Both the position numbers and the translations under genes were made by a program. A stretch of DNA of 64,000 nucleotides. It comes from Candidatus Woesearchaeota archaeon (GTDB taxonomy: Archaea; Nanobdellota; Nanobdellia; Woesearchaeales; JACPBV01). Each line of letters begins with the position of its first letter. The stretch's first letter is position 1. The notes beneath the pieces were generated by a model. That model was not told the DNA's origin and did not search any database. It worked only from the letters and a program-made list of their open reading frames with translations. Location of the stretch: contig JAHWIN010000011.1 of the NCBI GenBank assembly GCA_019322475.1, forward strand, positions 495 to 64,494, written 5' to 3'. This document shows, piece after piece, positions 16,895 through 55,079 of the stretch.

Positions 16895-17527
16895 ATGGAC
16901 TACCCTATATGGGGGCGTATAATCCCCCCAGTCATTGGATTATGGATAAAAAAGATAAATGGGCTAGAGAACATACCAAAAACAGGAGGCCTTGTAGTAT
17001 CTGCTAATCATTCAAGCTACCTTGACCATCTGATGATATCTTCCATAGTCGTTAAGTATTCAGGAAGGAAGATCCATTACCTTGCAAAGAAAGAGCACTT
17101 CGAAAAATTTTTCCAGAGGCTTTGGCATAAGAATGTCGGAGCAATCCCGATAGATCGCCAGTCAGGAGGCAAAGAGGCATTAAATACCGCAGTTAAATAT
17201 TTAAATGATGGAAAGATAATAGGGGTATATCCTGAAGGGACAAGGACGCTTACAGGAAAGCTTCAAAGGGCAAGGACCGGGGCTGCCAGGCTTGCCTTAG
17301 CAGCTAAGGTTCCTGTTTTGCCTATAGGCCTTATAGGTACATTTGATATAATGCCCAAAGGCCAGCACTACCCTAAGATGAAAAGGGCAGTAGTAAATAT
17401 CGGAAAGCCCCTTTATTTTAAGGAGTATTATGGAAAAGAAGAGGATAAGGCGATAATAAGGTTGGTGACCACTAAGATAATGAGGGAGATTGCCTCATTA
17501 TGCGGGCAAAGATATGAGTTTGATTAA
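16895..17527 (+). CDS. PlsC-family 1-acyl-sn-glycerol-3-phosphate acyltransferase (second paralogue)
   Basis: 'NHSSYLDHL' (HX4D), 'YPEGTRT' and 'PVLPIG' acyltransferase blocks. Confidence 0.7.
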   Translation: MDYPIWGRIIPPVIGLWIKKINGLENIPKTGGLVVSANHSSYLDHLMISSIVVKYSGRKIHYLAKKEHFEKFFQRLWHKNVGAIPIDRQSGGKEALNTAVKYLNDGKIIGVYPEGTRTLTGKLQRARTGAARLALAAKVPVLPIGLIGTFDIMPKGQHYPKMKRAVVNIGKPLYFKEYYGKEEDKAIIRLVTTKIMREIASLCGQRYEFD

Positions 17528-17528
17528 G

Positions 17529-18503
17529 ATGAAAATAGCGGTTATAGGTGCAGGAGGATGGGGAACGACCCTCGCCAATCTTTTGGCTGAAAAGAACAAG
17601 GATGTTACCCTGTGGGCTCTTGAAAAAGAGGTAGTTGACGAGATAAGCTCTAAAAGGGAAAATTCACGGTTTCTACCGGGAATAAAGCTTCTTGGAAACA
17701 TCACCCCAACAAATGATCTGGAAGATGCCGTTACTGATAAGGATTTTATCATAACTGCAATACCCTCTTCATTCATTAGGGGGATGGCAAAAGAGATGTC
17801 CCGGTTTATCAGCCCGGATACTATTGTAATATCTGTGACAAAAGGCCTCGAAGACATGACATTCAAGAGGATGTCAGAGATCCTGGAAGACGAATTAAAA
17901 AACAGGGTAATCGCATTGTCCGGCCCCAATCACGCAGAGGAGGTCAGCAGGAAGATACCTACAGCGACAGTCATAGCATCCAAACATTCAGGCATCCTTC
18001 CTAAGGCCAAGGCAGTCCTGGAAACCCCTTATTTTAAGGTTTACCCTCATGACGATGTCGTAGGGATAGAGATATGCGGCGCAGTCAAGAATATAACTGC
18101 TATAGCCATAGGCGTTTGTGATGCCCTTAAATTAGGCGACAATGCAAAAGCGTCTATAATAACATTGGGCCTTACCGAGATGAGCCGGGTAGGAAGATTT
18201 TTTGGGGCAAAAAGGGCAACATTCTACGGCTTAGCCGGAGTAGGCGACCTTATAGCTACATGCACCTCAAAGCATTCCCGGAATAGGTTTGTAGGGGAAA
18301 GGATTGCAGAGGGAAAATCATTTGAAGATATAAGGGAAGAGATGCACGGAATGGTTGCAGAAGGAATAAGGGCAGCAAAGTCTGTTTATGATCTGGCAAA
18401 AAAAGAGGACATAGACCTCCCTTTGACAACCCAGGTCTATAAGGTCCTCTATGAGAAAAAAGACCTGAAAAAAGCCATAAACGACCTTATTACCCTCATC
18501 TGA
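17529..18503 (+). CDS. gpsA: NAD(P)H-dependent glycerol-3-phosphate dehydrogenase (GpsA; makes the bacterial-type sn-G3P backbone)
   Basis: 'MKIAVIGAGGWGTTLANLL' is the GpsA Rossmann signature and the protein is GpsA-like throughout. Start placed at ATG 17529; the tracked ORF begins at 17490. Confidence 0.8.
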   Translation: MKIAVIGAGGWGTTLANLLAEKNKDVTLWALEKEVVDEISSKRENSRFLPGIKLLGNITPTNDLEDAVTDKDFIITAIPSSFIRGMAKEMSRFISPDTIVISVTKGLEDMTFKRMSEILEDELKNRVIALSGPNHAEEVSRKIPTATVIASKHSGILPKAKAVLETPYFKVYPHDDVVGIEICGAVKNITAIAIGVCDALKLGDNAKASIITLGLTEMSRVGRFFGAKRATFYGLAGVGDLIATCTSKHSRNRFVGERIAEGKSFEDIREEMHGMVAEGIRAAKSVYDLAKKEDIDLPLTTQVYKVLYEKKDLKKAINDLITLI

Positions 18504-18518
18504 ACAGCTTTAATGGTT

Positions 18519-19121
18519 TTACTCCTCTGTAAAATCCTCGATATTCTCTTTGAATTCGCTGTCCTTTTTTATTATTCCTCTTCCTTTCAGGTATTCCCTT
18601 GCAAGTATATAGAATATCAGGCCAAGGCTTTTCTTCCCCTTGTTGTTGCACGGAACGACTAAGTCTATATTGTTTGACTGGTTGTTAGTATCGCACAATG
18701 CTACGATAGGGATCCCTATCTTGTTTCCGTCTATTATTGCATTCCTGTCAGGCCATGAATCTGTGGCAAAAAGTATCTTGGATTCGGAATATATGTCCAA
18801 TGCAGGATTTGTAAGCATCCCTGGCGGGTATCTCCCTGTTATTATCTTTATGCCTGTAGCCTTTCCAAACGCCTTTATAGATTTCCAAGCATTCTCTCTC
18901 CTGCTCACTACAACGATATCCTCCGGAGCGTATTGCGAAAGGAAATTAGCTGCTATCCTTATCCTCTCATCTATCCTGCTTAGGTTCAGTATGCTCAGCC
19001 CGTCAGGCCTAGTCTTGTAGATGAACTGTTCCATATAGCGTGTCTTGAATTTTGTTCCTATGTGGATTCCTGACTTAAGGTACTGGTCCTGAGGTATTAA
19101 AAGCTGCTTTTGTTCTGCCAT
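18519..19121 (-). CDS. rps2: ribosomal protein uS2
   Basis: 'LLIPQDQYLKSGIHIGT' and 'DLVVPCNNKGKKSLGLIFYILARE' are S2 signatures. Confidence 0.85.
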   Translation of the reverse strand: MAEQKQLLIPQDQYLKSGIHIGTKFKTRYMEQFIYKTRPDGLSILNLSRIDERIRIAANFLSQYAPEDIVVVSRRENAWKSIKAFGKATGIKIITGRYPPGMLTNPALDIYSESKILFATDSWPDRNAIIDGNKIGIPIVALCDTNNQSNNIDLVVPCNNKGKKSLGLIFYILAREYLKGRGIIKKDSEFKENIEDFTEE

Positions 19122-19243
19122 CGTATTATCCTCCTATATGTTGGCTGCGCTTCTTTATAACCCAAGCGCATCTTTGTTTTAGCCATAGCCGGCTGAAACT
19201 TAGGTATTGCTATATAGGATTCTATCTTTGTTTAAAAACCTTG

Positions 19244-19470
19244 CGGAACTTCGTATGTATTAAGCTTAGTCGAGGTTGTTGCCAAAACGATGGGGGTCAT
19301 CAATTTGTGAGGCTCTCTTAATTGTATCTTTTAGTCGACAGGGGGGACGCCCCCTCCGGGGGATGTCGAATATCAAAGGATAGGATTAAGAGCCGAACCC
19401 GATGACCCCCGACTGAAAGGAGAGTTTTGGCAACAACCTCACAGTCGGAGCTTAATACATACGGAACTTC
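19244..19470. other. about 227-bp structured element bounded by ~45-nt imperfect inverted repeats (candidate ncRNA or MITE-like element)
   Basis: The 5' arm cggaacttcgtatgtattaagcttagtcgaggttgttgccaaaac is reverse-complemented at the 3' end. Inside is a nested GATGGGGGTCATC / GATGACCCCCGA helix and a G/C-rich core (gggggacgccccctccggggg) in an otherwise AT-rich intergenic region. Confidence 0.35.
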
Positions 19471-19535
19471 AAACTAAACAGCTAAATAAGTGCCAGCAGC
19501 TGAACTATAGCTCCAGAAAACCCCCTACATGAAAA

Positions 19536-20066
19536 CTATACAGAAAAGACAGCAACATCCTCATAAACAGGCCCCTTTGGCGTCAATCTGCTCTTTACCA
19601 GCCTGAAATCCCTGATATCTATAGCCTTGCCCTTAACATCTATCTTTTTCAGGCTTCCTATAAGTTCTTCTTTTTCCGTTACAGACTTTACCCTTGCTAG
19701 TGTTATATGCGGCTTAAACTCAAAATCCTTCTTGATCTTAAGGTCCTTTAAGGCAGTTTCAACACCCTCCTGCAGCCTCATGACCTCTTCAGAAGGCTTT
19801 ACCCCTACCCATATCACCCTTATATAATCCTCGCTTGGAAAGACCCCTATCTTGTCCAGCTTAAGCTTAAACGGCCTAAAGCTTACCTTTTTAAGCCTTT
19901 TTTTGGCCTCTTCTGCCCTTTCTTCAGGCACCTTTCCAAGAAACTTTAAGGTGATGTGGAAGCTTTCTGTTTTCTTCAGTTTAGCCAGCTTATCATCTAT
20001 CTTGTTCTGTATCCCTTCCAGCTCTTTCTTTAATCCGCTAAATTCTATAGCAACAAAAAGCCTCAT
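19536..20066 (-). CDS. RNA 2',3'-cyclic phosphodiesterase / 2'-5' RNA ligase (LigT, 2H family)
   Basis: Two H-x-T-x motifs ('FHITLKFLG' and 'PHITLARV') in a ~175-aa protein. Confidence 0.8.
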   Translation of the reverse strand: MRLFVAIEFSGLKKELEGIQNKIDDKLAKLKKTESFHITLKFLGKVPEERAEEAKKRLKKVSFRPFKLKLDKIGVFPSEDYIRVIWVGVKPSEEVMRLQEGVETALKDLKIKKDFEFKPHITLARVKSVTEKEELIGSLKKIDVKGKAIDIRDFRLVKSRLTPKGPVYEDVAVFSV

Positions 20067-20141: not shown

Positions 20142-20507
20142 TTACTCTTCTTTCTTCTCTTCTTCCTGAGCTGGCTCTTCGCCAAAATCTTCCGTATCTT
20201 CTGCTTTTGGCTCTTCTTCCTGAGCTGGCTCTTCGCCTGCTTCTGGAGCAGCTTCTGCAGGAGCTTCTTCGCTGGATGGAGCGCTGCCTTCACCGACAAC
20301 CTCTCCAAAGCCGACCCTTCTCAATACCCTTGTTACCTTAACCTTTACTTCATCTCCTTCTTTGGTGTTAGGCACAAAGATGACAAAGCCGTCTTTCTTT
20401 GCTATTCCGTCTCCTTTCTCTCCTACAGCCTCTATCTTCACGTCTATCTCATCCCCAACCTTTACTGGGGCCATAAAACTTCTATTTGGTCTAAAATCTC
20501 TTTCCAT
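20142..20507 (-). CDS. TRAM-domain protein with an acidic repeat tail
   Basis: 'GDEIDVKIEAVGEKGDGIAKKDGFVIFVPNTKEGDEVKVKV' is a TRAM/OB-type segment. The C-terminus carries 'EEPAQEEE' repeats. Confidence 0.6.
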   Translation of the reverse strand: MERDFRPNRSFMAPVKVGDEIDVKIEAVGEKGDGIAKKDGFVIFVPNTKEGDEVKVKVTRVLRRVGFGEVVGEGSAPSSEEAPAEAAPEAGEEPAQEEEPKAEDTEDFGEEPAQEEEKKEE

Positions 20508-54943: not shown

Positions 54944-54986
54944 TTGGCGTCCATCTCTTTTCTTTTTTCCCTTAACCTCTGCCAAT

Positions 54987-55035
54987 TTGTTACTCCTACA
55001 GATTTCCTCATCTTTTGTTTCTGTAGGGGTAACAA
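54987..55035. terminator. 16-bp inverted repeat hairpin between convergent htpX and the helicase gene (possible bidirectional terminator)
   Basis: TTGTTACTCCTACAGA, a 17-nt loop, then TCTGTAGGGGTAACAA, with one mismatch. T-rich runs flank it. Confidence 0.3.
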
Positions 55036-55079
55036 ATTTATGTAGGAGGTGATGATAGAAAACCTATCCCTTCTGATCC

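What the first reader, a model, noticed from the sequence alone, without database searches (positions are those of the whole stretch)
19244..19470. ~227-bp intergenic element bounded by ~45-nt imperfect inverted repeats, with nested G/C-rich helices
The terminal arms cggaacttcgtatgtattaagcttagtcgaggttgttgccaaaac and gttttggcaacaacctcacagtcggagcttaatacatacggaacttc are mutual reverse complements, with a small internal loop. A second helix is nested just inside (GATGGGGGTCATC / GATGACCCCCGAC). The centre is unusually G/C-rich for this genome (caggggggacgccccctccggggg). It lies between rps2 and ligT, both on the minus strand. The length and the long-range terminal pairing fit either a structured ncRNA (a reduced RNase P or SRP RNA, or a novel sRNA) or a miniature inverted-repeat transposable element.
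Basis: seen in the sequence. Interest (0 to 1): 0.6.

Follow-up and report, generated by a model that had tools for sequence, protein, structure and literature searches.

The report
Solo hairpin insertion, probably a MITE
A 227-base DNA palindrome between two housekeeping genes of an uncultured Woesearchaeota archaeon looks like a single-copy insertion of a small non-coding mobile element, not an RNase P or SRP RNA, so it is real but fairly ordinary.

Summary
Window 19244-19470 folds into one long, almost unbranched hairpin on either strand (RNA z -9.3 and -8.9, DNA z -8.4). It lies between rps2 and ligT, both on the minus strand. They bracket ~37-40-nt terminal inverted repeats, as a target-site duplication would. 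Thirty related Woesearchaeota loci with ligT directly upstream of S2 have a 110-181 nt gap and lack the element. There the ligT stop nearly abuts a conserved S2 promoter; here the element ends 5 nt from that TATA box. It has no ORF over 36 aa and no Rfam hit (RNase P and SRP absent at E<=10). G-U pairing does not favour either strand. No second copy turned up in the window, 550 kb of relatives, metagenome or viral contigs, phages, plasmids or 5.8 billion protein clusters. The nearest relative's LigT is only 65% identical, so covariation cannot be tested. Best reading: a solo MITE-like foldback insertion (~0.5). Main rival: a lineage-specific structured RNA (~0.25). Interest is low to moderate. 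In passing, the adjacent S2 leader is a conserved, covarying hairpin with a candidate pseudoknot and no Rfam match.

The parts
19244..19252 (.). Left 9-bp direct repeat CGGAACTTC (putative target-site duplication)
   Evidence: Perfect 9/9 direct repeat with 19462-19470. A 9-mer repeat at a fixed spacing occurs at 1.7e-5 per position in this window.
19252..19288 (.). Left terminal inverted repeat: perfect blocks 19252-19266 and 19272-19288, separated by the 5-nt side of an internal loop (TAGTC)
   Evidence: Inverted repeats I1 and I2, both 100% complementary; paired in the MFE folds.
19289..19423 (.). Internal, imperfectly palindromic core. Helices: GGGGGTCATC/GATGACCCCC (19292-19301 / 19401-19410), 19315-19332 / 19375-19392, 19332-19340 / 19364-19372. 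Apical G6-ACG-C5-TCC-G5 at 19341-19362, where the C5 run can pair with either G run. 13-nt one-sided bulge GACTGAAAGGAGA at 19411-19423.
   Evidence: Aligning the left half with the reverse complement of the right half gives 82 matches, 15 mismatches and several indels. Core GC is 0.52.
19424..19463 (.). Right terminal inverted repeat: perfect blocks 19424-19440 and 19449-19463, with the 8-nt side of the internal loop (ACAGTCGG)
   Evidence: I1, I2.
19462..19470 (.). Right 9-bp direct repeat CGGAACTTC (putative target-site duplication)
   Evidence: D6.
19471..19535 (-). 65-nt spacer between the ligT stop codon and the element. It has T4 tracts just after the stop and a third GGGGGT-type motif (GTAGGGGGTTTTC on the minus strand).
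   Evidence: D1. The S2-leader profile finds no second leader copy here.
19122..19243 (-). Context, not part of the element: the conserved S2 promoter and leader. On the minus strand: BRE-like CAAGG (19243-19239), TATA TTTTTAAAC (19238-19230), AATACC (19208-19203), hairpin 1 (19199-19176), hairpin 2 with a GGGTTATAAAG loop (19169-19147), SD GGAGG, ATG at 19121.
   Evidence: Conserved across Woesearchaeota loci. The profile hits window 19250-19136 at E 4e-9. Covariation.

Best explanation
The element is a solo, non-coding, foldback-type mobile-element insertion, MITE-like.

Its anatomy is about 209 bp of imperfect palindrome with ~37-40-bp terminal inverted repeats beginning (G)TATGTATTAAGCT. 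It landed in the short spacer between the ligT stop codon and the BRE/TATA of the rps2 promoter, and duplicated a 9-bp target (CGGAACTTC).

Inferred, not shown:
- It was mobilised in trans by a transposase that makes 9-bp staggered cuts.
- It is now a passive passenger.
- If ligT transcription reads through, it would form a long hairpin in the ligT 3' UTR just ahead of the T5 tract of the S2 TATA box.

Shown: the anatomy, the direct repeat, the lack of coding capacity, and its absence from orthologous sites.
For: 1. A perfect 9-bp direct repeat directly abuts the inverted repeats. The chance rate for a 9-mer repeat at a fixed spacing is 1.7e-5 per position, so about 1e-4 allowing a few offsets.
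2. It is absent from the orthologous site. Of 53 related loci where ligT lies upstream of S2 on the same strand, 30 have a gap of 110-181 nt, against 414 nt here.
3. In the relatives with the closest LigT proteins and the same radA-TRAM-ligT-S2-gpsA-plsC order (L203, L204, L205), the ligT stop lies a few nt from the conserved TATA box and nothing matches the element.
4. The spacer accepts other insertions. L201/L202 carry an orphan 206-aa ORF there, and LAGLIDADG genes sit nearby in L201 and L204.
5. The palindrome looks like a DNA-level feature:
- Both strands fold about equally well.
- G-U pairs are balanced, 6 on the + strand and 5 on the - strand.
- It contains perfect 15- and 17-bp helices.
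- Single-stranded DNA folds with z -8.4.
6. Its size (227 bp), intergenic position and longest ORF of 36 aa fit a MITE.
7. MITEs are documented in archaea, and a Woesearchaea genome is among the densest at 105 per Mb (PMC11602168).
Against: Only one copy is known:
- None elsewhere in the 64-kb window.
- None in 550 kb of related loci by covariance model or by blastn and nhmmer on the 80 genome loci.
- None in viral contigs or in phages and plasmids.
- No six-frame peptide match among 5.8 billion protein clusters.

No IS element or transposase sharing the termini was found. The rest of the source genome could not be searched.

The relatives are distant (LigT 65% identity or less). 'Absence' therefore shows a lineage-specific gain, not a recent transposition.

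The direct repeat is quasi-palindromic (GAAnTTC), so it also adds a few base pairs to the stem.

An unrelated, strongly structured element sits at the same spot in L058 (z -8.8). That could point to a function for structure at this site.
Confidence: 0.5

Rival explanations
1. It is a lineage-specific structured non-coding RNA of about 200-230 nt. It could be a stand-alone gene or be processed from the ligT 3' UTR, and it could be a domesticated MITE. Its long terminal helix would protect it or mark it for processing.
For: - Extreme fold stability.
- GC raised to 0.485-0.52 against 0.39 in the flanking spacer.
- The + strand folds 11 kcal/mol better than the - strand.
- On both strands a TATA-like box lies ~28-33 nt upstream of TATTAAG in the arm. 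That is the spacing between TATA and TATTACC in the S2 promoters of this clade (read).
- On the minus strand a T5 tract follows the element directly.
- L058 has another strongly structured element at the same site.
Against: - No Rfam family matches.
- No homologue exists anywhere, so there is no covariation.
- G-U usage is symmetric, 6 versus 5.
- Perfect 15-17-bp helices are unusual for a functional RNA.
- The flanking 9-bp direct repeat is left unexplained.
- The predicted start sites fall inside the outer helix.
- There are no expression data.
Confidence: 0.25
2. It is a cis-acting structural element of the ligT-rps2 spacer. A large hairpin would stabilise the ligT mRNA 3' end, help terminate its transcription, and insulate the S2 promoter from read-through.
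For: - It sits exactly between the ligT stop and the S2 BRE/TATA.
- Its 3' end on the minus strand lies 5 nt from the T5 of the TATA box.
- Relatives L058 (z -8.8) and L049 (z -3.2) have unrelated hairpins in the same spacer. In L058 the closing stem abuts the TATA box.
Against: - Thirty of 53 relatives manage with a 110-181 nt gap and no such structure.
- Archaeal termination relies on oligo-T tracts, which are already present after the ligT stop (established knowledge).
- A 227-nt rod is far larger than such a role needs.
- It does not explain the direct repeat.
- It is compatible with a MITE origin rather than a true alternative to it.
Confidence: 0.15
3. It is a reduced RNase P RNA or SRP RNA.
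For: Only the length and the pairing of the 5' and 3' ends.
Against: - No match to any RNase P or SRP model, even at E<=10 with permissive filters, and none at gathering scores.
- The fold is an unbranched rod with no P4-type long-range pairing.
- From my own knowledge, no AGCA/GGAA helix-8 motif is visible in the sequence.
- It is absent from all relatives at this site and from 550 kb of their DNA. An essential RNA would be conserved.
Confidence: 0.02

Closest known systems
Prokaryotic MITEs and foldback repeats (for example ERIC/IRU, Correia elements, the Sulfolobus SM MITEs, and the archaeal MITEs catalogued in PMC11602168)
   Same: - Size of 50-800 bp and no coding capacity.
- Intergenic position next to a promoter.
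- Terminal inverted repeats of at least 10-15 bp.
- A 2-10-bp target-site duplication; here 9 bp.
- The whole element can fold as a hairpin.
   Different: - Only one copy is known.
- No partner IS or transposase has been identified.
- The TIRs are unusually long (~37-40 bp) and the interior is palindromic throughout.
- No sequence similarity to anything in the collections searched.
IS families that make 9-bp duplications (IS4/IS10/IS50 type, IS903 group of IS5, IS256, IS1) and their MITE derivatives
   Same: A 9-bp direct repeat with a partly symmetric target (GAA-C-TTC). IS10 is known to prefer a symmetric 9-bp target (from my own knowledge).
   Different: - The termini (G)TATGTATTAAGC do not recall the CT..., GG... 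or GA... ends typical of those families (memory only; ISfinder was not available).
- No transposase gene sharing the termini lies in the window.
REPINs / REP doublets
   Same: A short hairpin-forming intergenic palindrome.
   Different: From my own knowledge, REPINs are usually much shorter, occur in tens to hundreds of copies with a RAYT gene, and make no target duplication. Here there is a single copy with a 9-bp repeat.
Archaeal SRP RNA and RNase P RNA
   Same: The 5' and 3' ends pair, and the length is a few hundred nt.
   Different: - No covariance-model match.
- No branched architecture or conserved motifs.
- Not conserved among relatives.

Membership tests
MITE | Terminal inverted repeats of at least 10-15 bp | tested here: met
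   Perfect 15-nt and 17-nt inverted blocks form ~37-40-nt arms.
MITE | Flanking target-site duplication of 2-10 bp | tested here: met
   A perfect 9-bp direct repeat CGGAACTTC lies at both ends. The background rate is 1.7e-5 per position.
MITE | Small size with no transposase or other coding capacity | tested here: met
   The element is 227 bp and its longest ORF is 36 aa. No six-frame peptide hit at E<=10.
MITE | Several copies in the genome | tested here: inconclusive
   One copy in the 64-kb window.
MITE | A related autonomous IS with the same termini | tested here: inconclusive
   Nothing else in the window shares the termini. ISfinder and the full genome were not available.
MITE | Presence/absence at orthologous sites | tested here: met
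   Absent from the ligT-S2 spacer of all syntenic relatives examined. Those relatives are distant: LigT identity is 65% or less.
Archaeal SRP RNA (Rfam Archaea_SRP and the small bacterial SRP) | Match to the family covariance model (helix 8 motifs, helix 5 rod) | tested here: not met
   No hit at gathering scores or at E<=10 with permissive filters.
RNase P RNA (archaeal and type T) | Match to the family covariance model (P4 pseudoknot, CR-I to CR-V) | tested here: not met
   No hit. The predicted fold is an unbranched rod.
c-di-AMP riboswitch (RF00379) | Score at or above the gathering threshold of 38 bits | tested here: not met
   14.7 bits, E 0.69, with many non-canonical pairs. This is a chance match.
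Structured ncRNA in general | Covariation that supports the helices across homologues | not testable with these tools
   No homologue exists in any collection searched.

The most novel reading that the evidence does not exclude
The rod is an expressed, lineage-specific structured RNA of about 200 nt, perhaps an exapted MITE. It sits immediately upstream of the S2 promoter. With the unrelated structured insert at the same place in L058, it would point to a recurrent role for large RNA or DNA hairpins at the ligT/rps2 boundary in Woesearchaeota.
Probability: 0.2. Interest if true: 0.5.

Novelty: new member of a known kind. Interest (0 to 1): 0.25.

Why it matters
If the MITE reading holds, this is one more orphan mobile-element relic in a DPANN genome. 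Its uses are modest. It marks the ligT-rps2 spacer as an insertion hot spot. It also gives a sequence tag (termini TATGTATTAAGC, 9-bp duplication) for finding the partner transposase and for strain typing in metagenomes.

It would matter more if it were transcribed as a stable RNA, because almost nothing is known about non-coding RNAs in Woesearchaeota.

The adjacent by-product may be the more valuable lead. It is a widely conserved, covarying S2 mRNA leader with a Shine-Dalgarno-like loop that pairs with the 5' end. No Rfam family reached its gathering score in four relatives that carry it, and the E<=10 scan of the window's own copy gave only chance-level matches.

Tried and rejected
- **Rfam, gathering thresholds, whole window:** nothing.
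- **Rfam, E<=10, 19100-19600:** only a 14.7-bit c-di-AMP match and a 72-position model (osmY) matched over only 30 nt at E 9.8. Both rejected as chance.
- **tRNA or tmRNA:** none in the window.
- **Second copy in the window:** The repeat finder, blastn with word size 7 and nhmmer --max find only the element itself.
- **Homologues in 80 S2-anchored genome loci:** blastn and nhmmer negative. The best hit is a 19-nt 89% match in the L058 spacer. It is barely above the maximum of 100 shuffles (28 versus 26) and was treated as chance.
- **Single-sequence covariance model R1:** over 550 kb it finds only the element on both strands.
- **Metagenome scan with the 17-mer arm:** 120 stretches, all with a single arm, so chance.
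- **Viral contig scans with two arm patterns:** chance hits only.
- **Phage and plasmid blastn:** no match.
- **Exact-protein look-ups of the window's LigT and S2:** not on record.
- **Six-frame peptide concatenate against 5.8 billion protein clusters:** nothing at E<=10.
- **Is the 65-nt spacer a duplicated copy of the S2 leader?** Rejected. The leader profile hits only 19250-19136.
- **Bulge-helix-bulge processing stem:** the internal loop can be drawn only as a 3-nt bulge, 4 bp and a 6-nt bulge, which is not canonical. Rejected by inspection.
- **C/D-box or K-turn reading of CGAUGA...CUGA:** the spacing is wrong. Rejected by inspection.
- **Replication origin (ORB-like G-strings):** the centre is not AT-rich, and the neighbouring genes converge at 18.5 kb rather than diverge. 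The window was not screened for orc1/cdc6. Rejected.
- **Assembly artefact:** rejected. The palindrome is imperfect, with indels, and lies in the middle of the contig.
- **MITE paper supplements:** not held.

Full report
**Observation**

The repeat finder on 19150-19560 gives these inverted blocks:
- 19252-19266 with 19449-19463 (15 nt, perfect)
- 19272-19288 with 19424-19440 (17 nt, perfect)
- 19292-19301 with 19401-19410 (GGGGGTCATC / GATGACCCCC, perfect)
- 19315-19332 with 19375-19392 (18 nt, 83%)
- 19332-19340 with 19364-19372

The tip is G6-ACG-C5-TCC-G5 (19341-19362). Its C5 run can pair with either G run.

As RNA the + strand folds at -112.1 kcal/mol (z -9.3) and the - strand at -101.1 (z -8.9). 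As single-stranded DNA z is -8.4. No shuffle reached these values, so the structure is not chance.

GC is 0.485 for the element and 0.52 for its core, against 0.424 for the window and 0.39 for the rest of the spacer.

Pfam confirms Ribosomal_S2 at 18519-19121 (-) and LigT at 19536-20066 (-). TRAM and RadA lie beyond on the same strand. A bacterial-type GpsA and an acyltransferase lie on the other side.

**A correction that matters**

The outermost 9 nt on each side (19244-19252 and 19462-19470) are the same sequence, CGGAACTTC, in direct orientation (D6). They are not reverse complements. They pair only partly, because GAAnTTC is quasi-palindromic.

The architecture is therefore direct repeat, inverted repeat, core, inverted repeat, direct repeat.

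In this window a 9-mer recurs at a given spacing of 150-300 nt with frequency 1.7e-5 per position. A perfect 9-mer exactly abutting both ends of the palindrome is therefore about a 1e-4 event by chance.

**Organism and relatives**

S2-anchored loci from GTDB representative genomes are all Woesearchaeota/Nanoarchaeota (DPANN) MAGs. The best S2 identity is 79%.

The window's LigT is NCBI MBW2988941.1 from a Woesearchaeota contig of 64,661 nt. The next LigT among 5.8 billion protein clusters is only 65% identical. No close relative is available, so covariation in the element cannot be tested.

**The element is an insertion relative to every syntenic relative**

- Of 53 loci where ligT lies upstream of S2 on the same strand, 30 have a gap of 110-181 nt. 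The gap here is 414 nt.
- The relatives with the closest LigT proteins and the same radA-TRAM-ligT-S2-gpsA-plsC order (L203, L204, L205) have called-gene gaps of 152, 114 and 123 nt.
- In alignments the relatives' ligT stop lies a few nt to about 45 nt upstream of a conserved CTTTTTAAAC box. The window has 65 nt, then the 227-nt element, then CAAGG, then the same box.
- The same spacer holds an orphan 206-aa ORF in L201/L202, with no Pfam hit.
- LAGLIDADG genes sit between radA and TRAM in L201 and L204.

The neighbourhood tolerates, or attracts, insertions.

**What the element abuts**

The ~120 nt between the element and the S2 start codon are conserved across Woesearchaeota. A profile built from the upstream regions of 84 fetched loci (nearly all Woesearchaeota relatives) hits the window only at 19250-19136 (E 4e-9).

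This block has the following parts, in order:
- a TATA-like box;
- about 30 nt later, AUUACC or AUUGCC;
- a variable hairpin;
- a second hairpin with loop UGAGGUAAUAAAAA or GGGCGAUAAUA;
- the Shine-Dalgarno sequence and the ATG.

The element therefore lies just outside the S2 transcription unit, at the edge of its BRE. It could be transcribed on the minus strand only as a ligT 3' extension or from a promoter of its own.

**Tests of the RNA readings**

Rfam finds nothing at gathering scores in the 64 kb. With permissive filters on 19100-19600 it finds only a 14.7-bit c-di-AMP match (gathering 38, E 0.69, many non-canonical pairs) and a 72-position model (osmY) matched over only 30 nt at E 9.8. 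No RNase P or SRP model appears even at E<=10. ARAGORN finds no tRNA.

The fold is an unbranched rod with one small fork at the tip. That is not the branched architecture of RNase P RNA or of an archaeal SRP RNA. This comparison rests on my own knowledge of those families, not on a tool result.

G-U pairs number 6 on the + strand and 5 on the - strand, so neither strand shows RNA-level selection. The 15- and 17-bp perfect helices look like a DNA palindrome.

Some points favour an RNA:
- The + strand is 11 kcal/mol more stable than the - strand.
- GC is raised.
- On each strand a TATA-like box lies ~28-33 nt upstream of the TATTAAG in the arm. That is the spacing between TATA and TATTACC in the S2 promoters of this clade (my reading).
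- On the minus strand a T5 tract follows the element.

These points are suggestive only. The implied start sites lie inside the outer helix.

**Searches for further copies**

All were negative:
- Nothing in the window.
- Nothing in the 80 genome loci by blastn and nhmmer.
- The single-sequence covariance model R1 over 550 kb finds only the element on both strands.
- All 120 metagenome stretches matching the 17-mer arm carry one arm only and are unrelated.
- Viral contigs, phages and plasmids give nothing.
- A concatenate of all six reading frames finds no called ORF among 5.8 billion protein clusters at E<=10.
- The source MAG is not in the genome collection, because the best S2 hit there is 79%. 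Its other contigs could not be searched.

**Interpretation**

The direct repeat, the inverted repeats, the small non-coding body and the lineage-specific presence in a spacer that is otherwise minimal together give the anatomy of a MITE or foldback insertion.

MITEs are reported in 20% of archaeal genomes, and a Woesearchaea genome is among the densest (PMC11602168).

My best explanation, at about 0.5, is a solo MITE-like insertion that duplicated a 9-bp target next to the S2 BRE. Shown: the anatomy, the repeat statistics, the lack of coding capacity and the absence from orthologous sites. Inferred: transposase-mediated mobility, the transposase family, and present-day passivity.

What keeps the confidence from being higher:
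- The defining multi-copy criterion is unmet in the accessible data.
- No partner IS is known.
- The relatives are too distant to show a recent empty site.
- L058 has an unrelated but strongly structured ~115-nt element whose closing stem abuts the S2 TATA box (z -8.8 on the sense strand, -6.1 antisense). L049 has weaker hairpins (z -3.2). Structure at this boundary may therefore have a use.

The rivals are:
- a lineage-specific structured RNA, possibly an exapted MITE (0.25);
- a cis-acting ligT 3'-end or insulator hairpin (0.15), which is compatible with a MITE origin;
- RNase P or SRP RNA (0.02).

**Comparison with known kinds**

It works like, and most resembles, prokaryotic MITEs and foldback repeats. 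It meets four of six MITE criteria. The other two, copy number and partner IS, are inconclusive. I file it as a probable new member of that kind, not a proven one.

It fails the membership tests for SRP RNA, RNase P RNA and the c-di-AMP riboswitch.

**Side finding: the S2 leader**

The test used an anchored alignment of 48 loci.
- The second hairpin's stem has changes on both sides at 6 of 6 pairs.
- The 5' AUU[A/G]CC pairs with the loop GG[U/C]NAU. The key pair is A-U in 25 loci, G-C in 22 and G-U in 1, with none unpaired.
- The covariation score is 0.513 against 0.174 for shuffles, and at most 0.145 for slid registers.
- Caveat: the loci were selected for at least 5 of 6 complementary positions between the two motifs.

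The loop resembles a Shine-Dalgarno sequence (GAGGUGAU or GAGGUAAU). In L010 it is repeated as the real SD before the ATG.

No Rfam family reaches its gathering score in four loci that carry it. This looks like an undescribed archaeal ribosomal-protein leader with a pseudoknot. It deserves its own follow-up.

**Verdict**

Interest: 0.25.

Noticed in passing
window 19122-19243 (minus strand); same block upstream of S2 in L001-L080 and L201-L205: A conserved Woesearchaeota S2 (rps2) promoter and leader. Its parts, in order:
- a TATA box;
- about 30 nt later, AUUACC or AUUGCC;
- a variable hairpin 1;
- hairpin 2, with a covarying stem (6 of 6 pairs with double changes) and a conserved SD-like loop, UGAGGUAAUAAAAA.

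The 5' AUU[A/G]CC covaries with the loop GG[U/C]NAU (A-U 25, G-C 22, G-U 1, none unpaired), which suggests a pseudoknot or an SD-mimic switch.

No Rfam family reaches its gathering score in four loci that carry it. Evidence. It is a candidate new archaeal ribosomal-protein leader.
   Followed up: partly
L058:2745-2885 (also L049:2750-2872 and the L051 gap): An unrelated, strongly structured ~115-nt three-way-junction element lies between the ligT stop and the S2 TATA box in L058 (z -8.8 sense, -6.1 antisense). Its closing stem GAGGUUUUGG/CCAAAACCUU abuts the TATA box. L049 has weaker hairpins there. In L051 the S2 leader itself is replaced by a ~150-nt rod.
   Followed up: partly
L201:3629-4249 and L202:1063-1683: An orphan 206-aa ORF with no Pfam hit (E<=1) is inserted in the same ligT-S2 spacer. 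From my reading, it displaced the original ligT 3' end (TCAGTTAAC) to its downstream side. LAGLIDADG-type genes lie between radA and TRAM in L201 and L204. The region appears to be an insertion hot spot.
   Followed up: partly
window 16895-18503 (+), with conserved neighbours in L201-L205: A bacterial-type NAD(P)-dependent glycerol-3-phosphate dehydrogenase (GpsA, including the GPD_NAD_C_bact domain) and PlsC-type acyltransferase(s) sit next to rps2 in this archaeon and its relatives, with the gene order conserved. These are bacterial-like lipid synthesis genes in a DPANN genome.
   Followed up: no
window 19289-19304 (+), 19413-19398 (-) and 19528-19513 (-): There are three copies of a G(T/A)NGGGGGT(C/T)(A/T)TC-like motif. 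Two form the inner helix of the element. The third (GTAGGGGGTTTTCTGG) lies outside it, in the 65-nt spacer after ligT (D1). Its significance is unknown.
   Followed up: no
window 54984-55038: A compact hairpin with 19-nt arms, 95% complementary, and a 17-nt loop (AATTTGTTACTCCTACAGA ... TCTGTAGGGGTAACAAATT). It is the only other long local inverted repeat in the window.
   Followed up: no
window 1-64000: ARAGORN finds no tRNA gene and Rfam finds no family at gathering scores in the whole 64 kb. Most genes from 18.5 kb onward appear to be on the minus strand, with a steadily falling cumulative GC skew.
   Followed up: no
window 20146-20253 (TRAM gene, 20142-20507, minus strand): A tandem 54-nt repeat (76% identical) encodes an acidic EEPAQEEE-type C-terminal tail on the TRAM-domain protein.
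   Followed up: no
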